From the IMG/VR virus record IMGVR_UViG_2563366803_000005, positions 1 through 49,836 of that record: DNA of 49,836 nt; one strand, written 5' to 3'. This document shows, piece after piece, positions 4,324-19,314 of the stretch; position 1 is the first letter of the stretch, and the number at the start of each line of letters is the position of its first letter. The notes beneath the pieces are model-generated. The model was given only the letters and a program-made list of their open reading frames with translations. It had not been told where the DNA came from and did not search any database. The position numbers and the translations under genes are program-made. The stretch is from a virus (lineage: Duplodnaviria > Heunggongvirae > Uroviricota > Caudoviricetes).

Positions 4324-4898
4324 TATCGCGTCCTCAACAATGAATTTTGTGATGCAGTGCCTGGTGCCTCCAGGTGACGTTAACCAGTTAACAATTAACG
4401 CCGGGTTAGTTGATGCTCGTTACGCCAGTAAAAGACCGCCTTACTGCTTTAACTGTTCCGCGTGCGCTCAGCCGCATTCACCGCATCACAAAATTCACTT
4501 TAAAAAGGGCGGCAGAGCAGTCACGGAGTAAAACTGATACCGCCAAACGTCACCAGAAAATTGATAACAGAGGGCGTTGCAGCGGGGTTGTCACTTAAGC
4601 GTATGGTCAACCTGACAACCCGGTGTCCTCAACGGGGGAAGGAATAACCCCGCCATATTTACCGCCGCGCCATTTCGCGGATTGCCACAACCGGAAGCGC
4701 ACGGTCGACGAAAATTTAACGACAGGCTATCTATGAACCAGCTACCTCGCCGTACGCTTTCGCGTTATGGTCTGACTTTTCAGGGAAATATCCTTTCAGT
4801 AAACTGTCAGTGCCGGATTCTTATCCGTGTCCGGCGCACGACCACACGCTGTCACGAGAGGTCTCCATTCTCAACCAGTAACCTCAATGGAGGATAAA

Positions 4899-5093
4899 AT
4901 GTCAGAGCAGGAGTTAAAACTTGGTGCATGTTATTGTGTTCTCAAGGAGCTGGTACACATGCTTCCATCTACTCAGTATCAACAGTTAGTTGGCAATTTA
5001 AATCAGCGAATCGAAGCTATGTTAAAATCTGATGGTTTTAATAACGTAGAAACGCTGATGCTAAAAAGATATCTTGATGGATTAATCAGATAA
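4899..5093 (+). CDS. Hypothetical small protein
   Basis: 64 aa (MSEQELKLGACYCV…). GGAGG RBS 5 nt upstream of ATG 4899. Plus strand, inside an otherwise minus-strand early-left region. Confidence 0.35.
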   Translation: MSEQELKLGACYCVLKELVHMLPSTQYQQLVGNLNQRIEAMLKSDGFNNVETLMLKRYLDGLIR

Positions 5094-5309
5094 CATTTTT
5101 TTACGGCGTTCATATTCGTTAATATTTATGAAGCCTGTTGCCAGAAGCAGTTCGTTAATTTCATGGTTGTTTGGCTGTTTCTGGCTCTTTGAACTGGGAT
5201 CTTCCACTTCTTTTTCTGCAAATTGTTTTGCTGTATCCTCTGTGCCATGGATATTTAAAGCTGTATCTGAAAACAGCCCAGTAAACGCATCGCGCACATT
5301 GCGAGCCAT
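5082..5309 (-). CDS. Hypothetical protein, possibly the 3' part of a frameshifted gene
   Basis: 75-aa ORF. A separate 54-codon ORF (MEFKDLPPSIQEIAAHTLRHRLNELELESVTKK…) starts at 5419 in a frame offset by one; the two meet at an A6 run (plus-strand T6 at about 5322-5327). Confidence 0.3.
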   Translation of the reverse strand: MARNVRDAFTGLFSDTALNIHGTEDTAKQFAEKEVEDPSSKSQKQPNNHEINELLLATGFININEYERRKKMLSD

Positions 5310-5430
5310 ATTATCAGTGTCTTTTTTGTTACCGATTCCAATTCAAGTTCGTTCAGACGATGACGAAGTGTGTGTGCTGCAATCTCCTGGATTGAAGGAG
5401 GTAAATCTTTAAATTCCATCGTCAACCTCA

Positions 5431-5670
5431 TCAGTCAGTGTTTCTTGCTAACCAGCGATGCGCACCAGCTGCGGTTTTAAACGTTTTACTTTTGGTATAC
5501 GTCATCGCGGTGAAGGTGCCGTCCTGGTTAGGGAACACACCGCATACCAGAGATTCGTTGTTGCCAAGATTGAGCGTATCCATGTTGACCTCATTTCCCC
5601 TTAACGCCGGGGTAGCGGAACAAAAAACCTGCTGCGCTGTTATACAAAGTGTTCCCGCCGTCATGTTCAT
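5431..5670 (-). CDS. Hypothetical protein, first ORF downstream of the candidate leftward promoter
   Basis: 79-aa ORF at the position lambda N occupies relative to pL. No arginine-rich motif recognised; coding status uncertain. Confidence 0.25.
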   Translation of the reverse strand: MNMTAGTLCITAQQVFCSATPALRGNEVNMDTLNLGNNESLVCGVFPNQDGTFTAMTYTKSKTFKTAAGAHRWLARNTD

Positions 5671-5761
5671 ACGCCTCGGGCTGGCTACTTAACCCCTGAC
5701 CACTGCCGGGTAACTCGAAGTATTTCCCTGCGTTCTGTGGGGCGGGGTGGGTTGGTATTTT

Positions 5762-5789
5762 AGTTTAATAAACATTAAACTTAAGTCAA
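5762..5789 (-). promoter_or_regulatory. Candidate leftward early promoter (pL-like)
   Basis: On the minus strand: TTGACT (plus 5784-5789), 16-nt spacer, TAAACT (plus 5762-5767). Flanked by CATTAAAC / AACTAAAC motifs resembling the CACTAAAC repeats at 6759-6824. Confidence 0.3.
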
Positions 5790-5873
5790 GTAAAAACTAA
5801 ACCGCGGGGCATAACAAACACAACGCTTTTGATAAAGTCGTTGCGGTTGTTATGTTTCTATTGGTAGTGAAAG

Positions 5874-6152
5874 TTAGGGAAACTGGCGTCTTGCGTGGAT
5901 CACGTTTACTACTTCAACGCTTGATGTTGTTACGCGGTATAGAATTATATAGTTAGGGTGGGCTACAATCTCACGCAAGCCAGGTACTCTGTCGCTTGGT
6001 GGGTATAAATACGGATGTTCGGATAACGGCAGCACACAACCCCTTAATCGCTGCCATAAGCGTTCAGCCGCATCTATGTCGAAACGAGCAATATAACTAG
6101 TTATATCATCTAGGTCGGTATCTGCGCTTTCAAGCCATAACACGGGTAACAT
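5874..6152 (-). CDS. parE: Type II toxin, ParE/RelE family
   Basis: 92 aa from ATG at 6152 (MLPVLWLESADTDLDDITSYIARFDIDAAERLWQ…HPNYIILYRVTTSSVEVVNVIHARRQFP), ParE-like length and C-terminal pattern. Start lies 1 nt after the antitoxin stop. Confidence 0.75.
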   Translation of the reverse strand: MLPVLWLESADTDLDDITSYIARFDIDAAERLWQRLRGCVLPLSEHPYLYPPSDRVPGLREIVAHPNYIILYRVTTSSVEVVNVIHARRQFP

Positions 6153-6153
6153 T

Positions 6154-6345
6154 TTACTGCTTGCTCCGTTCCTTACGCATCTTAGCAAAGCGTTCTGCCA
6201 TTCTGCGCTCAACTTCGTCATGGGGAATTGCTGGGCGCGGATCTGCAAGGCTCGTTGCTACTTTCGCACGCAGCCATTCGTTGTAACTGTTTTCTTGTTC
6301 AATGGTTTCAAATTCAGAAACCATTGGTGAAAGGGCTCTATTCAT
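6154..6345 (-). CDS. paaA: Small antitoxin (PaaA2-like) of a three-gene regulator-antitoxin-toxin operon
   Basis: 63 aa (MNRALSPMVSEFETIEQENSYNEWLRAKVATSLADPRPAIPHDEVERRMAERFAKMRKERSKQ). GGAGG RBS upstream of ATG 6345. Sits directly upstream of the ParE-like gene; size matches the described 63-residue PaaA2. Confidence 0.65.
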   Translation of the reverse strand: MNRALSPMVSEFETIEQENSYNEWLRAKVATSLADPRPAIPHDEVERRMAERFAKMRKERSKQ

Positions 6346-6365
6346 GTTTCCTCCGGTTTTATAAC

Positions 6366-6737
6366 TCAGGCGCGGCGGCATTTTTGCGCCGCAATCCATC
6401 TCGCTATGAGATCTTCCATTGATTCTTTTTTCTGCTTTAACTCGCTGATTATCTGGCGTTGCTCATCCTCAGGGAAGGCTGAAAAAATCTGCAATAATTC
6501 CAGTTGATTAGACGTTAACCCTGCATGTGGTGGAGAAACCCCCGGTTGTTCTGCGTATTCCGCATCCAGATACCCTTCCGGCATCCCGTATGTTTGCTCT
6601 ATTCTTCTGGCAGCCTTTTCTCCAAACGAGGCTCTCCCACTCATTAGTTGAGATAGGTAGCTCTTCTCTTTGGGTGGCAGAGTTTTATCTTTAAACCACT
6701 CCTTGAGACGTAAACGGCGAATTTCTTTTTTTTGCAT
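6366..6737 (-). CDS. paaR: HTH transcriptional repressor (CI/DicA-like; PaaR-like regulator) in the immunity position
   Basis: 123 aa from ATG 6737 (MQKKEIRRLRLKEWFKDK…). N-terminal HTH and DicA-like C-terminus (…LELLQIFSAFPEDEQRQI…). Divergent from the Cro-like gene across a 97-bp repeat-containing region. Confidence 0.75.
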   Translation of the reverse strand: MQKKEIRRLRLKEWFKDKTLPPKEKSYLSQLMSGRASFGEKAARRIEQTYGMPEGYLDAEYAEQPGVSPPHAGLTSNQLELLQIFSAFPEDEQRQIISELKQKKESMEDLIARWIAAQKCRRA

Positions 6738-6834
6738 GTGGTAATTATCTTTAGTAATCACTAAACAAGCAAATACTTGACTTAATGGTTTATTAAACAC
6801 TAAACTCGCAAAAAAACACTAAACCGAGGAAGGT
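6738..6834. promoter_or_regulatory. Divergent operator/promoter region with three CACTAAAC repeats
   Basis: CACTAAAC at 6759-6766, 6798-6805 and 6817-6824. Candidate rightward promoter TTGACT (6777-6782), 18-nt spacer, TAAACT (6801-6806), its -10 overlapped by repeat 2. RBS GAGGAAGG before ATG 6835. Confidence 0.5.
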
Positions 6835-7137
6835 ATGACATTAAAAGAGTTTATTAAATCATTAAGGGTTGGTGATGCTAAGAAATTCGCGGCCAGACTT
6901 GGTGTATCGCCATCTTACTTATCGCAAATGGCGTCTGGACGAACAGCTATATCTCCAACCCGCGCCCTTATGATCGAATCTGCGACGGAAGGCCAAGTAA
7001 GTAGGGCGGAGCTACGACCCCATGATTGGGAGCTTATTTGGCCTGAGTATGCGAGCGGCATTCGTTTGGGGCAAACACATGTAGTTCATGCTGAAGGTGA
7101 TTGTAGTACATGCTTATCTGATGGAGTTGATTCATGA
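6835..7137 (+). CDS. Cro-like HTH regulator (YdaS-like)
   Basis: 100 aa with HTH (…AARLGVSPSYLSQMASGRTAISP…). First rightward gene, divergent from the repressor. Confidence 0.65.
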   Translation: MTLKEFIKSLRVGDAKKFAARLGVSPSYLSQMASGRTAISPTRALMIESATEGQVSRAELRPHDWELIWPEYASGIRLGQTHVVHAEGDCSTCLSDGVDS

Positions 7138-9318: not shown

Positions 9319-10089
9319 ATGGAAACCGTATCTGACGCACTGAAAGCACTGAAAAAAGCCTCTTCACATGTGGTGGCAGCTCGCCTTGGAATCAGTCGTG
9401 AAGAGGCTGTCAACGAGCTGTGGGAACTCAAAAGAAAAGGCGTCGTTGATAAAACTGGTCACACCTGGTTTCTAGCTGGCGAAGGTGAATCCCGGGTAAC
9501 CGAAGAGCGGCCAGTAAAATCTGAAGCACAGGATATGCTGACCGGGGAGGTCGAACAAAAAGTTACCGCAGACATGATGATTGAGTTTATCGGTCAGGAT
9601 GGGGCTAAAACGTGTGAGGAACTGGCGGGTAAGTTCGGTGTCAGTACTCGCAAGGTTGCTTCCACGCTGGCGGTGGTAACCGCAACGGGGCGGCTGGCAC
9701 GCGTTAATCAGAACGGTAAATTTCGTTACTGCATGCCGGGCGATAATTTACCAGCAGAGCCGAAAGCCGCTCTGGTAACGGAAAGTGATGGTAAGGCCTT
9801 TCCTCAGCCAGCAGGTGCTGCGTTACCAGTCCGGGAAGCCGCAACACAGGAAGAAATTAAAACAGAAACTGTGGCGGACATTGTGCAGCCGTTGCCATCG
9901 TTTACCGAAACGCAAGCAGATGAGCTGATTTTTCCGTCCCTTCGCAGGGCAAACCTGGCGCTGCGCAGGGCGAAAAGTGATGTTCAGAAGTGGGAGCGAG
10001 TCTGCGCCGCGCTGCGGGAGCTGAACAAGCACCGGGATATTGTTCGACAGATTACTGATTCTTCCCGCCGTGTTGTATCGGAAAAGTGA
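9319..10089 (+). CDS. Hypothetical protein with two winged-helix-like segments
   Basis: 256 aa; RBS GGAGG upstream; function not recognisable from sequence. Confidence 0.5.
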   Translation: METVSDALKALKKASSHVVAARLGISREEAVNELWELKRKGVVDKTGHTWFLAGEGESRVTEERPVKSEAQDMLTGEVEQKVTADMMIEFIGQDGAKTCEELAGKFGVSTRKVASTLAVVTATGRLARVNQNGKFRYCMPGDNLPAEPKAALVTESDGKAFPQPAGAALPVREAATQEEIKTETVADIVQPLPSFTETQADELIFPSLRRANLALRRAKSDVQKWERVCAALRELNKHRDIVRQITDSSRRVVSEK

Positions 10090-10104
10090 TTGCCGGAGGC
10101 GCTT

Positions 10105-10437
10105 ATGGCAAAAGTATTTACACAAGAAGAGCGGGAAAAAATTAAAGGGCAGGTTGTTGAACTTGTACGTCTGAGCGGTCGCGAGACGTTGCGGCAACTG
10201 GAAGCCAAGACAGGTGCGACAAGATATCTGATGAGTGTTCTCGCCAGAGAGCTGGTTGCCAGTGGCGATGTATACAACTCTGGTTACGGGTTATTCCCGT
10301 CTGAACAGGCGCGTAAGGACTGGCAAAACGCCCGCAAAAAACTCTCAAGGGCAAATCTGAAGAAACCATCTGTGGTTGATCCTGACCTTATCTGGTCATT
10401 ACCAGACGGAGAAATACGCCGCTACGACAGGCGTTAA
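10105..10437 (+). CDS. Hypothetical protein
   Basis: 110 aa from ATG 10105 (MAKVFTQEEREKIKG…); CCGGAGG RBS. Confidence 0.5.
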   Translation: MAKVFTQEEREKIKGQVVELVRLSGRETLRQLEAKTGATRYLMSVLARELVASGDVYNSGYGLFPSEQARKDWQNARKKLSRANLKKPSVVDPDLIWSLPDGEIRRYDRR

Positions 10438-10573
10438 AACATAATCTGTAGCGAGTGCCGGAAGAGCGAAGCTATGCAGCGTGTACTGGCTTTCTATCAG
10501 GGTAATTTTCAGAAGGTGCTGTTGTGAGCCAAATTAACAATCGGAACTTCGTGAAGAGAAAGCATAATCCAAA

Positions 10574-10624
10574 TCTGAATAATTAAGTTCAGCACTGTAA
10601 ATAAAATTTAATCCTTAACTGGAG
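10574..10624 (+). repeat. Copy A of a ~50-bp repeated regulatory element (palindrome + RBS)
   Basis: CTGAATAATTAAGTTCAGCACTGTAAATAAAATTTAATCCTTAACTGGAGG; about 85% identical to copy B at 11842-11890. Contains inverted repeat ATTAAgTT…AAtTTAAT; ends in the SD for the ORF at 10633. Confidence 0.55.
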
Positions 10625-10632
10625 GTATATCT

Positions 10633-10845
10633 ATGTCAAATACACAGAAAATTATTAACACTGAAAAATATAACGAGTGGGTGAAAAAATTCTCTGAGCA
10701 GATTTTTAAAATTACTGGCGACGAGAATGTGGCAAAAAATGAATTAGAACCGTGGACACCTGAAGGAAACGCACCAAATTATTGCTGGTGGGAGGTTGAT
10801 CCGGTTGATGCTGCAAATGAAGCCATGAGTTACCACAACGATTAA
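10633..10845 (+). CDS. Hypothetical small acidic protein
   Basis: 70 aa; GGAGG RBS 7 nt upstream; follows repeat copy A. Confidence 0.45.
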   Translation: MSNTQKIINTEKYNEWVKKFSEQIFKITGDENVAKNELEPWTPEGNAPNYCWWEVDPVDAANEAMSYHND

Positions 10846-10854
10846 TGTCGGGAG

Positions 10855-10872
10855 GCCGCCCGAAAGGGCGGT
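10855..10872 (+). promoter_or_regulatory. SD-hairpin-AUG element (CCGCCC-GAAA-GGGCGG stem-loop), copy 1
   Basis: GGGAGG (10850-10855), 6-bp G/C stem with GAAA tetraloop, then ATG at 10878. The same 22-nt element recurs at 11915-11936. Confidence 0.5.
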
Positions 10873-10877
10873 AAGAA

Positions 10878-11096
10878 ATGACTACATTATTGAGAAAAGA
10901 ATATCCGCAAAAAAGTAGGGCAACAGAATTTTTGTTTCTCATTCTGTTTATCGTATTGATGATACCGATATCCCCTCTAATTTTTGTCTGGGCAATCGGG
11001 AAAATAATTGAGCCAGTTACTGAATTGTATACCGACGTTGTATGGGCGTCGTTCAACATACTGCACAATAAAATTAATCCGTATAAGGAAAACTGA
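10878..11096 (+). CDS. Hypothetical small membrane protein
   Basis: 72 aa with a long hydrophobic segment (FLFLILFIVLMIPISPLIFVWAIG); start preceded by the hairpin element. Confidence 0.45.
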   Translation: MTTLLRKEYPQKSRATEFLFLILFIVLMIPISPLIFVWAIGKIIEPVTELYTDVVWASFNILHNKINPYKEN

Positions 11097-11097
11097 T

Positions 11098-11361
11098 ATG
11101 GCAACTTTGACAAAAAAAGAACGGGCATGGTTGAACGAATTACAGGAAGTTCTTGATCGCTGTCCATCACCGAAAAAAATTGGCTTTTACACCATTGGCG
11201 ATAAAAGCATTTACCTGTATGACCTACGCCGCATGGATGAAATCATGGAGGCTCTTGATAATCGTTCGTCGATGGATTGGTGTGTTGCTGTTCATGATAT
11301 GAATGCAGGGTTTGATGAAAAGATTTTGTTCCCCTCATCAGTTGAAAGCACTGCGGGTTAA
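11098..11361 (+). CDS. Hypothetical protein
   Basis: 87 aa from ATG 11098 (MATLTKKERAWLNELQEVL…); AAGGAAA RBS; ATG 1 nt after the upstream stop. Confidence 0.5.
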   Translation: MATLTKKERAWLNELQEVLDRCPSPKKIGFYTIGDKSIYLYDLRRMDEIMEALDNRSSMDWCVAVHDMNAGFDEKILFPSSVESTAG

Positions 11362-11371
11362 GGAGTAACAC

Positions 11372-11515
11372 ATGACCACTATTACCAAAGAACGTATTGA
11401 ATTGTTCATTAAATTTTCAGGAGGCGGTACTGTGAGTGAAATTAGCTATCAGGCTTCAATTACCGCTGGCATTCGCATCAAAGGAGAGGAGCATGGAAAT
11501 AAAACCAGAGGATGA
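11372..11515 (+). CDS. Possible 47-aa micro-ORF
   Basis: Strong RBS AAGGAG 7 nt before ATG 11372 (MTTITKERIELFIKFSGGG…); overlaps the next gene start in another frame. Below the ORF-track length cutoff. Confidence 0.3.
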   Translation: MTTITKERIELFIKFSGGGTVSEISYQASITAGIRIKGEEHGNKTRG

Positions 11516-11849
11516 GTTAAGCAATATCGTTTTATTTCCGGTAAAAGAGGATGACCCTCGTAATCAGGTTAATTTTCTTTATGAGCCATCGGAAAGACCA
11601 TATTGTCATCACGCCTCTGTCCGGGTTGACGAAAAAGAGCGTCAGGTCCGCTGTAAAATCTGCGGTGCAGTTGTGGAGCCATTTGACTGGATGCTCTCTG
11701 TGGCGAAAAGAGAAACCAGACTGGCAGATGATGTAAGGCACTTGCGCCAGGAGGAGCGGGAAAGGCGAAAAAATATAGAAAAGCTAATTCAGATTGAGCG
11801 TAACGCGAAAGCGCGGATACGCAGGGCGACAAAATCCAGAACTGAATAA
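11493..11849 (+). CDS. Hypothetical protein with putative zinc-ribbon (CHH…CKIC)
   Basis: 118 aa from ATG 11493; AAGGAGAGGAG RBS; Cys/His cluster YCHHASVRVDEKERQVRCKICG; basic C-terminus. Confidence 0.5.
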   Translation: MEIKPEDELSNIVLFPVKEDDPRNQVNFLYEPSERPYCHHASVRVDEKERQVRCKICGAVVEPFDWMLSVAKRETRLADDVRHLRQEERERRKNIEKLIQIERNAKARIRRATKSRTE

Positions 11850-11890
11850 TTAAATTTAGCTCTGTTAAAAATTTAATCCTTAACCGGAGG
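11842..11890 (+). repeat. Copy B of the ~50-bp repeated regulatory element
   Basis: CTGAATAATTAAATTTAGCTCTGTTAAAAATTTAATCCTTAACCGGAGG, with perfect inverted repeat ATTAAATTT-N12-AAATTTAAT. Confidence 0.55.
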
Positions 11891-11918
11891 GATTTCTGCA
11901 CCCTCAGAACATCAGGAG

Positions 11919-11936
11919 GCCGCCCGAAAGGGCGGT
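11919..11936 (+). promoter_or_regulatory. SD-hairpin-AUG element, copy 2
   Basis: AGGAGG then CCGCCC-GAAA-GGGCGG, then ATG at 11943. Confidence 0.5.
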
Positions 11937-11942
11937 AGTTAA

Positions 11943-12125
11943 ATGCGAAAGTTTAAAATAATTATTGAAACGGGAATAGCCGGTGGAGATTTCGAGGATG
12001 AATTCGAAGTGGATGATGATGCGACGCCTGATGAAATACATGACGAAGCAAAAGATATTTTCTTTAACTACTGCAATTACTCATATCACGAAATAAAAGA
12101 CGAAGAGGAAGAGCAAAATGGCTGA
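11943..12125 (+). CDS. Hypothetical very acidic 60-aa protein
   Basis: About one third Asp/Glu (…DFEDEFEVDDDATPDEIHDE…EIKDEEEEQNG). Confidence 0.4.
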   Translation: MRKFKIIIETGIAGGDFEDEFEVDDDATPDEIHDEAKDIFFNYCNYSYHEIKDEEEEQNG

Positions 12126-12294
12126 TTTTGGTTCAACTAAATACAACGTCAGTTTTGAAGCATGGCATGAACTGTTAATGGACTATGCAGAGTTACGTGG
12201 TGGCAGTGCTGCTGATGCTGAAGCATGGCGTGATGATTATGAAGCAGGAAAAACTCCGGTCGAAGCATATTGTGATGAGTGGGGCGATGAATGA
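12118..12294 (+). CDS. Hypothetical acidic 58-aa protein
   Basis: MADFGSTKYNVSFEAWHELLMDYAELRGG…; overlaps the upstream stop and downstream start (ATGA at 12291-12294). Below the ORF-track length cutoff; found by reading the DNA. Confidence 0.4.
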   Translation: MADFGSTKYNVSFEAWHELLMDYAELRGGSAADAEAWRDDYEAGKTPVEAYCDEWGDE

Positions 12295-12680
12295 GCGAGA
12301 TTAATTATCAGGAAGGGCATGAAACGGCAGGGCAGGCAAAACCAGTTGCATGGCGATATCGCTACGTGAAAAAAGACGTTACAGACTTTCAGGGGAAGCC
12401 GTGGGCTGGTGACTGGAAATATGTACCGACAAAAGAGGATTGTAACGACAGGCCGAACTATGAAATTCAGGCCTTATTCATCGGCCCGCCAGTCCCGGTG
12501 ACATCAGAAGGACTGGTTAAAGCCGTGCGCTTTTATGAACAGGTAAAGCGTGAGAATCCGCCAGTCGAAACAGGAGCATGGAAGGATGCTGTTGACTGGG
12601 TGCTCAGAGAGGCCTGCTGCGCTGCCATTCTGGGTAAGCCGACAATCCACCAGCATCCGGCAATCAGGTTAGCGAATTAA
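12291..12680 (+). CDS. Hypothetical protein
   Basis: 129 aa; translationally coupled to neighbours; no recognisable motif. Confidence 0.5.
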   Translation: MSEINYQEGHETAGQAKPVAWRYRYVKKDVTDFQGKPWAGDWKYVPTKEDCNDRPNYEIQALFIGPPVPVTSEGLVKAVRFYEQVKRENPPVETGAWKDAVDWVLREACCAAILGKPTIHQHPAIRLAN

Positions 12681-12682
12681 CA

Positions 12683-12805
12683 ATGTGGGTTAAACGACTG
12701 GTCAGTCAACTGAAAAAAGCTCAGCCGGACTGCAAATTACCGGAGAAGGCGATGGATTACCTGAAACGAAATGGACTGATAAGCGTGGAGGATGTTTTAC
12801 GATGA
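12683..12805 (+). CDS. Possible 40-aa micro-ORF
   Basis: ATG 12683 two nt after the upstream stop (MWVKRLVSQLKKAQPDCKLPEKAMDYLKRNGLISVEDVLR). Confidence 0.25.
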   Translation: MWVKRLVSQLKKAQPDCKLPEKAMDYLKRNGLISVEDVLR

Positions 12806-12925
12806 ATATTTAGACTAAAGAGTTTGTAACGCTATGTAAGTGATTTTTTCTGGTTTAGATATTTATATGTCCGGCCAAATTGAGGTGTGTTTAAATGTTA
12901 TTGCACATTGATTGTAGGGGGAATA

Positions 12926-13105
12926 ATGAAAAACGCATTGCAGTTTTTGTTTGTTGCGTTCTGGTTGTTCGCATCATGTATGCCCATCATCTTCACAGCA
13001 AGGTATATGGAAAAAATTGATGTTTTGATATTAATGTTTGGACATATAAATGCCCTTTTTTTAGGGGTGTTCATGGCGGTCATGTGCATTGAATACTGGC
13101 GGTAA
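12926..13105 (+). CDS. Hypothetical small membrane protein
   Basis: 59 aa from ATG 12926 (MKNALQFLFVAFWLFASCMPIIF…); RBS AGGGGGA; two hydrophobic segments; AT-rich. Confidence 0.4.
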   Translation: MKNALQFLFVAFWLFASCMPIIFTARYMEKIDVLILMFGHINALFLGVFMAVMCIEYWR

Positions 13106-13363
13106 ATACAGCGAACGCCATTGGTTTAGTTGGATATTTACTGTGCCGGACAAAAACGGTTTGCGGGGAAATCTTAGTTAAGTAGAATGACTGCGGGTGC
13201 TTGAGGCTATCTGTCTCAGGCATGAACACCAAAAGGCAGATAGAGAAAAGCCCCAGTTAACATTACGCGTCCTGCAAGACGCTTAACATTAATCTGAGGC
13301 CATATCTATGCGACACATAGAGATTAGCCTCTTACGGACCGAAAGGTCAAGGAGAAGCAGGCT

Positions 13364-13519
13364 ATGAAGCAGCAAAAGGCGATGTTAATCGCCCTGATCG
13401 TCATCTGTTTAACCGTCATAATGACGGCACTGGTAACGAGGAAAGACCTCTGCGAGGTACGAATCCGAACCGGCCAGACGGAGGTCACTGTCTTCACAGC
13501 TTACGAACCTGAGGAGTAA
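13364..13519 (+). CDS. hok: Hok/Gef-family type I toxin
   Basis: 51 aa (MKQQKAMLIALIVICLTVIMTALVTRKDLCEVRIRTGQTEVTVFTAYEPEE); Hok pattern with one TM helix and LTRK-x-LCE-x-R motif. A 19-codon upstream ORF (13308-13367) ends in ATGA overlapping the hok start. Confidence 0.8.
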   Translation: MKQQKAMLIALIVICLTVIMTALVTRKDLCEVRIRTGQTEVTVFTAYEPEE

Positions 13520-17337: not shown

Positions 17338-19314
17338 ATGGTGGAAAGAACCATGGCATTTAAACACTATGATGTTGTCAGGGCGGCATCGCCGTCAGAC
17401 CTTGCGAAACGACTGACACAAAAACTGAAGGAGGGGTGGCAGCCATTTGGCAGTCCGGTGGCCATCACGCCTTATACCCTGATGCAGGCCATTGCGGCGG
17501 AAGGTGATGTCACCACACCTGTGGTGGTGAAGCCGTCGGATGGAGAAGGCGCAGTTATCAGCACCACCAGCAACCCGGAGTATTACTTTGTTGTTGCCCT
17601 GGCCGGGCAGTCAAACGGTATGGCGTATGGTGAAGGGCTTCCGCTGCCGGAGACATATGACCGTCCGGACCCGCGTATTAAACAGCTGGCGCGTCGCAGC
17701 ACTGTCACGCCGGGTGGTGCGTCCTGTAACTACAATGACATTATTCCTGCGGACCACTGCCTGCATGATGTTCAGGATTTGAGTAAGTTTTCACACCCGA
17801 AAGCCAGCGCAGCTCAGTATGGATGCGTGGGGCAGGGATTACATATCGCGAAGAAATTGTTGCCGTTTATTCCGGCGAATGCCGGTATTCTTCTGGTTCC
17901 GTGCTGCCGTGGTGGTTCTGCATTTTTGGCGGGCGATGAAGGTACCTTCAGCGAATCCACCGGCGCAAGCGAGACCTCGGCACGCTGGGGTGTTGATAAG
18001 CCACTGTACAAGGACCTGCTTACCCGTACTCAGGCCGCACTGAAGGCCAACCCTAAAAATATTCTGCTTGCAGTGGTCTGGATGCAGGGCGAGTTTGATT
18101 TGAAACAGGGTGCATACGCCACTCAGCCGGGGCTGTTTGATTCCATGGTGGAAAAATATCGTTCTGACCTGTCGGAATTCGGAGGTCAGTGTCTCGGGGG
18201 CTCTCCGTCATCGGTTCCCTGGATTTGTGGCGACACGACCTACTACTGGAAGCAGACTTATTCTTCGCAATACGATGCGGTGTATGGTGCATACAAGACG
18301 AAATCCGCAAAAAAAATCTTCTTTGTGCCGTTTATGACGGATGAAAACGGGCGAAATGTGGGTACCAACGAGCCGTCAGAAGATCCGGATGTTGCGGATG
18401 TTGGGTATTACGGAGCCGGTGGTCGAACGGACGCCAAAACCTGGACGACGGCCGACCGTAAAACGCATTTTGGATCATGGGCACGTCGTGGGATTATTTC
18501 CGACCGTCTGGCAACGGCGATTCTTGTGCATGCCGGGAGAAACGCTGAATTCATTACCGGAAAACAGCCTGATACGGTGAAGCCCACCGGACCTTCCGGT
18601 GAAGGTACGGAGAGAGAGCCGGAAGCCCCGGTCAGTAACCGAACCCTGATGAGTCTGCTGGCGTCCGGCGAAGACCTGGCATCACAGGGCTGGCGCTATT
18701 ATCACAAACCGGCGAGCGGAGACAATGTTAACAAAAACATTGCTGAAGCGGTGGTCAGTGATGCGGGGGCTACGGGAGGTAAGGCCCTGCAACTGAATAA
18801 ACCGGAAAACCACATCTGGTTTCTGGAGCATGATGCAGCCGGACAGGGAGTGGAGTTACTGAAGAAGGGGGGACGTGTGAGCGTACGGTTTAAGTTGCCG
18901 GGTTCACTGGTGCCGAATCAGTTTGCCCTGGGCATTTACTGGCAGTTGTCGTCCCTGCCGGAGGGAGTGACGCTGGCAGAGGAAGGCAACGACATGCTGA
19001 TGTCCTTCTTCCTGCAGACGGATGCGACGAACCTGAACGCGATGCACCACAAGAAGCCGAATGCGAAGCTGGATACGTTCGGGGTCTTTGATAACGGATG
19101 GCACACACTGGCTTTTGAGTTTGCCGGAAACAACAGCATTCAGGTGACGCCGGTACTGGATGAGAAACGGGGGACGCCGTTCACACTGGTGAAATCTCCG
19201 GCATCAGGGGCGGCGGACAAACTGCAACTGACAGGCATATCAAAGGCGGCGACATATACGCTGCTGATTGACAGTGTGAAGGTGGAAGTGAACAACGCGG
19301 ACATCGCGGCATGA
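17338..19314 (+). CDS. nanS: Prophage sialate O-acetylesterase (NanS-p-like, SGNH/SASA domain) with C-terminal extension
   Basis: 658 aa (alternative start ATG 17353). GQSN motif (…VALAGQSNGMAYGEG…); C-terminal about 250 aa is beta-rich. Occupies the position downstream of Q where such esterases sit in Stx-type prophages. Confidence 0.75.
   Translation: MVERTMAFKHYDVVRAASPSDLAKRLTQKLKEGWQPFGSPVAITPYTLMQAIAAEGDVTTPVVVKPSDGEGAVISTTSNPEYYFVVALAGQSNGMAYGEGLPLPETYDRPDPRIKQLARRSTVTPGGASCNYNDIIPADHCLHDVQDLSKFSHPKASAAQYGCVGQGLHIAKKLLPFIPANAGILLVPCCRGGSAFLAGDEGTFSESTGASETSARWGVDKPLYKDLLTRTQAALKANPKNILLAVVWMQGEFDLKQGAYATQPGLFDSMVEKYRSDLSEFGGQCLGGSPSSVPWICGDTTYYWKQTYSSQYDAVYGAYKTKSAKKIFFVPFMTDENGRNVGTNEPSEDPDVADVGYYGAGGRTDAKTWTTADRKTHFGSWARRGIISDRLATAILVHAGRNAEFITGKQPDTVKPTGPSGEGTEREPEAPVSNRTLMSLLASGEDLASQGWRYYHKPASGDNVNKNIAEAVVSDAGATGGKALQLNKPENHIWFLEHDAAGQGVELLKKGGRVSVRFKLPGSLVPNQFALGIYWQLSSLPEGVTLAEEGNDMLMSFFLQTDATNLNAMHHKKPNAKLDTFGVFDNGWHTLAFEFAGNNSIQVTPVLDEKRGTPFTLVKSPASGAADKLQLTGISKAATYTLLIDSVKVEVNNADIAA

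What the first reader, a model, noticed from the sequence alone, without database searches (positions are those of the whole stretch)
9319..13105. Dense array of about 12 small early ORFs, including very acidic proteins
Between the replication genes and the nin-like region lie about 12 short ORFs (40-256 aa), many translationally coupled (ATGA overlaps at 12291-12294; overlapping stop/start at 12118-12125). They include two consecutive very acidic proteins (11943-12125 and 12118-12294, about 26-33% Asp/Glu), a zinc-ribbon-like protein and small membrane proteins. Strongly acidic small early proteins are the typical profile of DNA-mimic anti-restriction or anti-defence factors (Ocr/ArdA-type); that assignment is inference only.
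Basis: partly seen in the sequence, partly recalled or inferred. Interest (0 to 1): 0.6.

Follow-up and report, generated by a model that had tools for sequence, protein, structure and literature searches.

The report
Mosaic accessory genes of lambdoid prophage
This stretch is the ordinary, highly variable accessory-gene segment of a Rac/Qin-type E. coli prophage; its two very acidic mini-proteins are real, conserved phage proteins of unknown function that do not resemble the Ocr or ArdA anti-restriction proteins.

The parts
9319..10089 (+). DUF1627 / YdaW-like protein, 256 aa, with weak winged-helix-type matches. It is the first gene after the DnaC-like replication gene.
   Evidence: Pfam DUF1627 E 9.8e-99 and phrog_630 E 9e-133. 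PGAP CDS WP_000450998.1. K-12 ydaW was an overexpression 'blocker' of the retron-Sen2 toxin in a screen.
10105..10527 (+). LygF / DUF977 (Ren-like exclusion family) pseudogene, with an in-frame TAA at 10435-10437.
   Evidence: Pfam DUF977 E 1.8e-18 and phrog_142 for residues 1-110. The 29 codons after the stop match phrog_142 positions 88-114. PGAP notes 'internal stop'. Intact relatives have CTA at that codon.
10605..10625 (+). Junction repeat AATTTAATCCTTAACYGGAGG, copy 1. It carries the Shine-Dalgarno sequence of the 10633 ORF.
   Evidence: Two copies in the window, none expected by chance.
10633..10845 (+). 70-aa mildly acidic protein (pI 4.5), phrog_4659. First gene of module A.
   Evidence: phrog_4659 E 4.8e-51. 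No PDB relative. Module behaviour.
10851..10873 (+). GGAGG plus GC hairpin (GCCGCCC-GAAA-GGGCGGU), copy 1, ending 4 nt before the ATG at 10878.
   Evidence: Exact repeat, none expected by chance. Stable fold, z -3.6. Found in at least 119 IMG/VR contigs in front of several gene families.
10878..11096 (+). DUF4014 small membrane protein, 72 aa. Module A.
   Evidence: Pfam DUF4014 E 1.9e-26 and phrog_1832 E 2.5e-44.
11098..11361 (+). 87-aa protein, phrog_1714. Module A.
   Evidence: phrog_1714 E 9.5e-51. PGAP CDS. No PDB relative.
11372..11515 (+). 47-aa protein, phrog_19884. Module B.
   Evidence: phrog_19884 E 2.4e-36. PGAP CDS.
11493..11849 (+). 118-aa protein with a possible zinc ribbon and a basic C-terminal helix, phrog_1621. 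Module B.
   Evidence: phrog_1621 E 2e-56. The Pfam Zn_Ribbon_TF hit is below threshold. No PDB relative.
11870..11890 (+). Junction repeat AATTTAATCCTTAACYGGAGG, copy 2. No ORF follows it directly.
   Evidence: and the sequence.
11915..11937 (+). GGAGG plus GC hairpin, copy 2, ending 5 nt before the ATG at 11943.
   Evidence: Also conserved upstream of DUF7167 in phages PhiR42_1, 640R1 and ArgO145.
11943..12125 (+). DUF7167 protein, 60 aa, 33% D/E. Predicted beta-beta-alpha mini-domain with an acidic tail. First gene of module C.
12118..12294 (+). 58-aa acidic three-helix protein (26% D/E), matching the C-terminal part of phrog_519. Module C.
12291..12805 (+). One phrog_660 gene (171 aa when intact), broken here by a 1-nt deletion near 12635 into ORFs of 129 aa and 40 aa. 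Module C.
   Evidence: The two ORFs match phrog_660 positions 34-144 and 154-193. The intact ORF in L087 and 11 other contigs, aligned to the window, shows the missing A.
12887..13105 (+). Hydrophobic ORF of uncertain status (72 aa from GTG, 59 aa from ATG 12926). This DNA travels with module C.
   Evidence: No Pfam or PHROG match. Not called by PGAP. Opposite strand annotated in two phage records. 7 non-synonymous to 1 synonymous site. Some sources call it 'membrane protein'.
13195..13519 (+). hok/sok type I toxin-antitoxin locus, the right-hand boundary of the variable segment.
   Evidence: Rfam sok 106.7 bits. Pfam HOK_GEF E 3.5e-22. PGAP hokD.

Best explanation
Shown: the span is the hypervariable accessory segment of the rightward early operon of a Rac/Qin-type lambdoid prophage. 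It lies between the replication genes (O-like, DnaC-like) and the hok/sok, DUF968 and RusA genes upstream of the late genes. It is a concatenation of three modules that are independently gained and lost:
- module A: the 70-aa gene, DUF4014 and the 87-aa gene;
- module B: the 47-aa gene and the Zn-ribbon gene;
- module C: DUF7167, the 58-aa gene, the 171-aa gene and the adjoining downstream DNA.
The modules are joined by short conserved junction sequences. In this prophage two genes have decayed.

Shown: the two acidic ORFs are genuine, conserved, single-domain phage proteins (DUF7167 and a PHROG-519-type three-helix domain). They are not members of the Ocr or ArdA families.

Inferred: after induction or infection they are co-transcribed and translationally coupled with their neighbours. 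Each probably acts stoichiometrically, using its conserved negative surface to bind a basic, probably nucleic-acid-binding, surface on a host or rival-element protein. That would make them host-takeover or counter-defence binders rather than enzymes or virion parts.

The confidence of 0.5 blends about 0.9 for the shown parts with about 0.35 for the inferred mechanism.
For: - Identity and annotation: 99.9% identical to the ATCC 25922 prophage next to potC.
- Family membership of each ORF.
- Mosaicism: 4747 of 5426 E. coli genomes match some part, but only 60 match at least 80% of the span. Related contigs show LygF>B>C>hokD, LygF>A, LygF>C and LygF>hokD with no cassette at all.
- Most of the same genes (the Zn-ribbon gene, the 70-aa gene, DUF7167, the 58-aa gene and DUF4014, with a non-homologous Ea22-like gene in place of the 171-aa gene) sit between exo/ssb and int in Stx phage ArgO145.
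- Junction repeats.
- G+C is 43-44% in this stretch against 50-54% in the flanks.
- No excess of promoter-like or terminator-like sites inside the span.
- Both acidic families keep their charge. DUF7167 has 25-36% D/E and net charge -7 to -16 in 49 homologues down to 45% identity, with 14 columns at least 70% acidic. The 58-aa family has 11 such columns.
- Both fold confidently as tiny globular domains too small for catalysis.
- Both occur only in phages and prophages of widely different hosts, with no constant neighbour.
Against: - No experiment or homology links either acidic protein to any target.
- The only published statement found is a machine-learning anti-CRISPR score for PHROG 519.
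- The 58-aa family sits directly after the major capsid gene in phage Vi01, which is not an early context.
- The whole cassette is absent from many close relatives, and two neighbouring genes are broken here. Selection on it in this lysogen may therefore be weak.
- Acidic composition alone is a weak predictor of function.
Confidence: 0.5

Rival explanations
1. The two acidic proteins are DNA-mimic anti-restriction proteins of the Ocr/ArdA kind. [quoted passage not shown]
For: Very high and conserved negative charge. Small size. Restricted to phages. Known DNA mimics have unrelated folds (established knowledge), so lack of fold similarity cannot exclude mimicry.
Confidence: 0.07
2. They are modulators of the phage's own development (replication, recombination or the lysis-lysogeny decision). 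The small ORFs of the lambda/Stx exo-xis region (orf60a, orf61, orf63, orf73, Ea22, Ea8.5) are the model here. They would act on phage or host replication or transcription factors, not on defence systems.
For: In ArgO145 the cassette occupies the region between the recombination genes and int that corresponds to exo-xis. DUF7167 is embedded in replication or recombination gene neighbourhoods in Klebsiella Guernseyvirinae, in Klebsiella and Serratia prophages and in this window. The role of exo-xis ORFs in development is established knowledge from my own memory, not checked here.
Against: No homology to any exo-xis ORF: DUF7167 found no lambda record among its 35 tblastn hits. No constant partner gene. 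DUF7167 also occurs in virulent Enterococcus and Klebsiella phages, and the 58-aa family in Kuttervirus phages; these have no lysogeny decision.
Confidence: 0.25
3. They are anti-CRISPR proteins.
For: PHROG 519 members of Kuttervirus phages received positive PaCRISPR/AcRanker scores in one preprint. The proteins are small and acidic, like several known anti-CRISPRs.
Confidence: 0.05
4. They have no selected function in this lysogen. They would be passenger or decaying genes of a degenerating prophage.
For: Two neighbouring genes carry inactivating mutations. The cassette is dispensable in many relatives.
Against: Both ORFs are intact. Both families are conserved down to 30-45% identity across genera, with invariant core residues and conserved charge. 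That requires purifying selection at the family level.
Confidence: 0.1

Closest known systems
nin / ren region of phage lambda and the ea / exo-xis regions of lambdoid and Stx phages (non-essential accessory segments of the early operons)
   Same: Same kind of place: after the replication genes and before the Q-type late regulator, or in the leftward arm in ArgO145. Densely packed, translationally coupled small ORFs. Mosaic presence and absence between relatives. Contains a Ren-like (LygF) gene.
   Different: Apart from the Ren-like gene, the individual genes here match no characterised nin or exo-xis protein family. The only annotated resemblance is a PGAP 'ead/Ea22-like' label on the non-homologous ArgO145 gene at the position of the 171-aa gene.
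Ocr (T7 gp0.3) and ArdA DNA-mimic anti-restriction proteins
   Same: Strongly negative net charge, small size and carriage on a mobile element.
   Different: No sequence, profile or fold similarity. Half or less of their length. Not placed at the first-expressed end of the genome.
Pfam DUF7167 (PF23768) and PHROG 1997
   Same: ORF 11943-12125 is a full-length member: 55.1 bits against a cutoff of 24.4, covering the whole 60-position model.
   Different: Nothing differs. The family itself has no known function, and no paper in the library mentions it.
PHROG 519 (261-member family of unknown function, common in Kuttervirus phages)
   Same: ORF 12118-12294 matches with E 2e-22. Related proteins lie after the capsid gene of Vi01.
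   Different: Only profile positions 76-137 of 143 are covered. Most relatives found here are likewise stand-alone proteins of 50-65 aa.
Promoter-early stem-loop (PeSL) cassettes that flank small ORFs in hyperplastic regions of T4-type phages, and the hairpin-bridged ribosome-binding sites of T4 genes 38 and 25 (recalled from memory, not checked)
   Same: A conserved GGAGG plus hairpin element sits 4-5 nt before the start codon of two unrelated genes here. It occurs in front of at least four gene families in at least 119 viral contigs.
   Different: No promoter consensus accompanies it. A role in recombination or translation is untested. In 27 contigs it is followed only by a 4-codon ORF.

Membership tests
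Ocr (T7 gp0.3) family | Sequence homology to Ocr | tested here: not met
   No Ocr hit in Pfam at E<=0.1. No PDB chain of Ocr found by phmmer or by family profiles at E<=10.
Ocr (T7 gp0.3) family | Elongated all-helical fold whose dimer imitates about 24 bp of bent DNA | tested here: not met
Ocr (T7 gp0.3) family | Very high negative charge | tested here: met
   33% and 26% D/E, net charge -15 and -11. Conserved across homologues.
Ocr (T7 gp0.3) family | Expressed first from the leading end of the entering genome | tested here: not met
   The genes lie downstream of the O-like and DnaC-like replication genes, or deep in the leftward operon in ArgO145. Timing is inferred from position only.
Ocr (T7 gp0.3) family | Inhibits type I restriction-modification or BREX enzymes | not testable with these tools
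   Needs plating or binding assays.
ArdA family | Sequence homology to ArdA and its three-domain fold of about 165 aa | tested here: not met
Pfam DUF7167 | Score above the curated gathering threshold over the full model | tested here: met
   ORF 11943-12125 scores 55.1 bits against a cutoff of 24.4, model positions 1-60 of 60.
PHROG 519 | Significant match to the family profile | tested here: met
   ORF 12118-12294: E 2e-22, profile positions 76-137 of 143, which is the C-terminal part only.
Anti-CRISPR loci | Small protein followed by an Aca-type HTH regulator, or similarity to a known anti-CRISPR | tested here: not met
DNA-mimic proteins (a functional class, not a homologous family) | Surface carboxylates spaced like DNA phosphates, and competitive binding to a DNA-binding protein | not testable with these tools
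Only the conserved charge could be shown.
Lambdoid accessory (nin / ea type) region | Non-essential, mosaic block of small co-oriented ORFs within an early operon | tested here: met
   Position. Modules present or absent in relatives, including complete absence. Relocation to the leftward arm in ArgO145.

The most novel reading that the evidence does not exclude
DUF7167 and the PHROG-519-type three-helix protein are two new families of very small acidic phage inhibitors, possibly nucleic-acid mimics. They would neutralise a host defence or DNA-handling protein that is conserved from Firmicutes to Proteobacteria. That would explain their spread across temperate and virulent phages of Escherichia, Klebsiella, Serratia, Pseudomonas, Salmonella and Enterococcus.
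Probability: 0.25. Interest if true: 0.55.

Novelty: already known. Interest (0 to 1): 0.22.

Why it matters
As it stands, the finding matters little. The sequence is already in RefSeq and is annotated gene by gene, and the region is a textbook kind of mosaic accessory block.

Its limited value lies in two points. First, it singles out two catalogued but uncharacterised mini-protein families whose conserved negative charge and wide phage distribution make them reasonable candidates for counter-defence screens. Second, it shows that the Ocr/ArdA label should not be transferred to them.

The corrections also matter for anyone counting or cloning these ORFs: one nonsense pseudogene, one frameshift-split gene and one unsupported ORF.

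Tried and rejected
- PADLOC and NCBIfam scans of all ten ORFs gave only noise.
- PDB sequence searches found nothing significant. This covers single sequences of the two acidic proteins, the 70-aa, 87-aa and 118-aa proteins and the intact 171-aa protein, plus family profiles of the two acidic proteins.
- Foldseek of the DUF7167 model against BFVD found only uncharacterised phage proteins.
- Literature searches for DUF7167, the RefSeq protein accessions and the PHROG numbers returned nothing functional. Searches for LygF/DUF977/DUF1627/DUF4014 and for DNA mimics in lambdoid prophages gave no direct information on these genes.
- I considered a link between DUF7167 and exonuclease genes, because phage records annotate an adjacent 'exonuclease'. 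I rejected it. The neighbours are unrelated proteins, the Enterococcus one looks like an ASCH/DUF3850-type domain, and other contexts lack any nuclease.
- I considered ArgO145 gp13 as the intact form of the 12291 gene and rejected it. Only the first 49 nt align. The true intact form came from IMG/VR contigs.
- Codon-position analysis of 12887-13105 was inconclusive because there are too few variable sites.
- The genome-contig scan for DUF7167 gave only 3 loci. The viral-contig scan returned 80 identical E. coli copies and added no diversity.
- Rfam found no RNA family inside the span other than sok at its edge.


Full report
**What the window is.** The span 9319-13105 is 99.9% identical over its full length to about 54 complete E. 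coli genomes, among them ATCC 25922 and several ST131 strains. In ATCC 25922 it lies in a prophage inserted next to potC. The gene order there is integrase, excisionase, RecE-like exonuclease, dicB, relBE, repressor and Cro-like regulators, YdaT, an O-like HTH protein and a DnaC-like ATPase. The finding's span follows, then hokD, DUF968 (YdfU), RusA, DUF1133 and the lysis genes. This is a Rac/Qin-type lambdoid prophage. G+C falls to 43-44% at 10-13 kb, against 50-54% on both sides. Promoter-like and terminator-like sites inside the span are no more frequent than in shuffled sequence. A promoter-like site at 6777-6806 precedes the Cro-like gene. Co-transcription with the replication genes is therefore the simplest reading, but it is an inference.

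**Checking the observation.** All 12 ORFs exist at the given coordinates. The two acidic ORFs have 33% and 26% Asp+Glu, pI about 4.05, and net charge -15 and -11. They are the two most acidic of 37 annotated CDS in the matching 24-kb stretch of the ATCC 25922 prophage and its flank. The junctions ATGGCTGA (12118-12125) and ATGA (12291-12294) are as described. There are further tight junctions at 11096/11098 and 11493-11515. Ten of the 12 ORFs match PHROG families with E-values from 1e-21 to 1e-133. Four also match Pfam families: DUF1627, DUF977, DUF4014 and DUF7167.

Three corrections are needed:
- The second ORF is a LygF/DUF977 ('Ren-like exclusion') gene with an in-frame TAA at 10435-10437. 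The 29 codons after the stop still match the end of the family profile, intact relatives have CTA there, and PGAP marks it as a pseudogene.
- ORFs 12291-12680 and 12683-12805 match PHROG 660 at profile positions 34-144 and 154-193. Twelve IMG/VR contigs carry a single 171-aa ORF. Alignment shows that the window has lost one A from GGGTAAAGC near 12635.
- ORF 12887-13105 has no family match and is not called by PGAP. In two phage records the opposite strand is annotated instead. Across 13 variants it shows 7 non-synonymous and 1 synonymous site, with a substitution density like that of the flanks. Some sources label a 59-aa version 'membrane protein'. Its status is open.

The array is therefore 10 genes, two of them broken, plus one doubtful ORF.

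**Architecture.** The span is strongly mosaic. 4747 of 5426 E. coli genomes match some part of it, but only 60 match at least 80%. I mapped the window's proteins onto about 120 related viral contigs. The segment between LygF and hokD turned out to be assembled from three blocks that occur independently:
- A: the 70-aa gene, DUF4014 and the 87-aa gene;
- B: the 47-aa gene and the Zn-ribbon gene;
- C: DUF7167, the 58-aa gene, the 171-aa gene and the DNA containing the doubtful ORF.

Observed combinations include LygF-B-C-hokD, LygF-A, LygF-C, the window's A-B-C, and LygF directly followed by hokD with no cassette at all. In the inducible Stx2a phage ArgO145 most of the same genes (the Zn-ribbon gene, the 70-aa gene, DUF7167, the 58-aa gene and DUF4014) lie in a different order in the leftward arm, between exo/ssb and int. 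The Ea22-like gene that follows them there is not homologous to the window's 171-aa gene.

Two short junction sequences are repeated inside the span:
- AATTTAATCCTTAACYGGAGG, at 10605 and 11870.
- GGAGGCCGCCCGAAAGGGCGGTA, at 10851 and 11915.

Neither is expected by chance. The second is a GGAG(G) followed by a stable 7-bp GAAA-tetraloop hairpin, ending 4-5 nt before the start codons of DUF4014 and DUF7167. It occurs in at least 119 IMG/VR contigs in front of at least four unrelated gene families. These look like module-boundary sequences. Whether they also act in translation is untested.

**The two acidic proteins.** ORF 11943-12125 is a full-length member of Pfam DUF7167 and PHROG 1997. A profile search extended the family to Klebsiella, Citrobacter, Serratia, Yersinia and Pseudomonas. 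tblastn found it in Klebsiella Guernseyvirinae and in Enterococcus Herelleviridae. A structure search found look-alikes in phAPEC8 and in Streptomyces and Lactococcus phages, all uncharacterised. The conserved motif is F-x-V-[ED]-D-D-A-T-x-[ED]-[ED]-I...A..I/V-F..N.C-N-Y. Its neighbours differ in every context examined, so there is no constant partner. Within E. coli lambdoid phages it is nearly always followed by the 58-aa gene: 43 of 46 contigs. In distant taxa the two occur apart. One contig has lost DUF7167 while keeping the 58-aa gene.

ORF 12118-12294 matches the C-terminal part of PHROG 519. An exhaustive profile search found 74 cluster representatives at E<=1e-3, mostly stand-alone proteins of 50-65 aa. 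Relatives occur in 198 phage records, mainly Kuttervirus/Vi01-like Salmonella, Klebsiella and Escherichia phages. In Vi01 the gene lies directly after the major capsid gene.

In both families the negative charge is conserved. DUF7167 has 25-36% D/E in all 49 homologues, with 14 columns at least 70% acidic. The 58-aa family has 11 such columns.

DNA mimics are structurally diverse, so mimicry as a mechanism cannot be excluded. No tool here could test it. The only published functional statement I found is a machine-learning anti-CRISPR score for PHROG 519.

**Most likely mechanism.** The region-level description is shown by the data. For the acidic proteins I commit to the following inference. 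They are delayed-early, translationally coupled accessory proteins. They are too small for catalysis and act by stoichiometric binding through a conserved acidic surface to a basic, probably nucleic-acid-binding, site on a host or competitor protein. I give about 0.25-0.35 to counter-defence in the broad sense, about 0.25 to modulation of the phage's own development, under 0.1 to Ocr/ArdA-style anti-restriction, about 0.05 to anti-CRISPR, and about 0.1 to no selected function in this lysogen.

**Novelty and verdict.** The sequence, the gene calls and the families are all already catalogued, and the region is a familiar kind of lambdoid accessory block. The useful outcomes are the corrected gene count, the module structure, the exclusion of Ocr/ArdA membership, and two reasonably motivated candidates for counter-defence screening. 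Interest is low.

Noticed in passing
window 10851-10873 and 11915-11937: Exact 23-nt repeat GGAGGCCGCCCGAAAGGGCGGTA: a Shine-Dalgarno-like GGAG(G) followed by a 7-bp GAAA-tetraloop hairpin, ending 4-5 nt before the ATG of two unrelated genes (DUF4014 and DUF7167). If the hairpin folds, the GGAG sits about 6-7 nt from the ATG, like the hairpin-bridged ribosome-binding sites of T4 genes 38 and 25 (recalled from memory). It is present in at least 119 IMG/VR contigs in front of at least four gene families. In 27 contigs only a 4-codon ORF follows it.
   Followed up: partly
window 10605-10625 and 11870-11890: Second intergenic repeat, AATTTAATCCTTAACYGGAGG. Copy 1 provides the ribosome-binding site of the 70-aa gene. 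Copy 2 has no ORF behind it, as if a gene had been lost or replaced at that module boundary.
   Followed up: no
window 12291-12805 (deletion near 12635): A 171-aa phrog_660 gene is split by a single-base deletion. RefSeq PGAP annotates the 129-aa piece as an ordinary hypothetical protein without flagging it as a pseudogene.
   Followed up: yes
window 10435-10437: Nonsense codon in the LygF/DUF977 (Ren-like) gene. Together with the frameshift above, it shows that this prophage is accumulating inactivating mutations in its accessory region.
   Followed up: yes
window 9319-10089: The DUF1627 gene is a full-length relative of K-12 ydaW. ydaW was reported as an overexpression 'blocker' of the retron-Sen2 toxin RcaT in a genome-wide screen (bioRxiv 10.1101/2020.06.22.160242). 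This is the only gene family in the array with any published link to a defence system.
   Followed up: partly
window 13195-13519: A hok/sok type I toxin-antitoxin locus (Rfam sok 106.7 bits; hokD) directly bounds the variable segment. It is the constant right-hand anchor in related contigs.
   Followed up: partly
an IMG/VR contig among L012-L130 (protein MRKFRKNKMADFGSTKYNV...): A natural deletion variant: the first four codons of DUF7167 are fused to the 58-aa gene, so DUF7167 is lost and its neighbour kept. The pair is therefore not obligatorily linked.
   Followed up: no
L131 (Salmonella phage Vi01) 2501-2695: The Kuttervirus homologue of the 58-aa acidic protein lies immediately downstream of the major capsid protein gene, in a late-gene setting. 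This is unlike its early-operon position in lambdoid prophages.
   Followed up: no
GenBank PP818812.1 (hits H4, H101, H131): A record named 'Actinobacillus phage vB_Apl-pPE4' carries this E. coli lambdoid cassette at 83-93% identity. The host attribution looks doubtful.
   Followed up: no
L001 (ATCC 25922 prophage) 4815-7027 and 17439-17774: The same prophage also carries dicB, a relBE toxin-antitoxin pair and the anti-adaptor gene iraM. It is rich in host-modulating cargo outside the finding's span.
   Followed up: no
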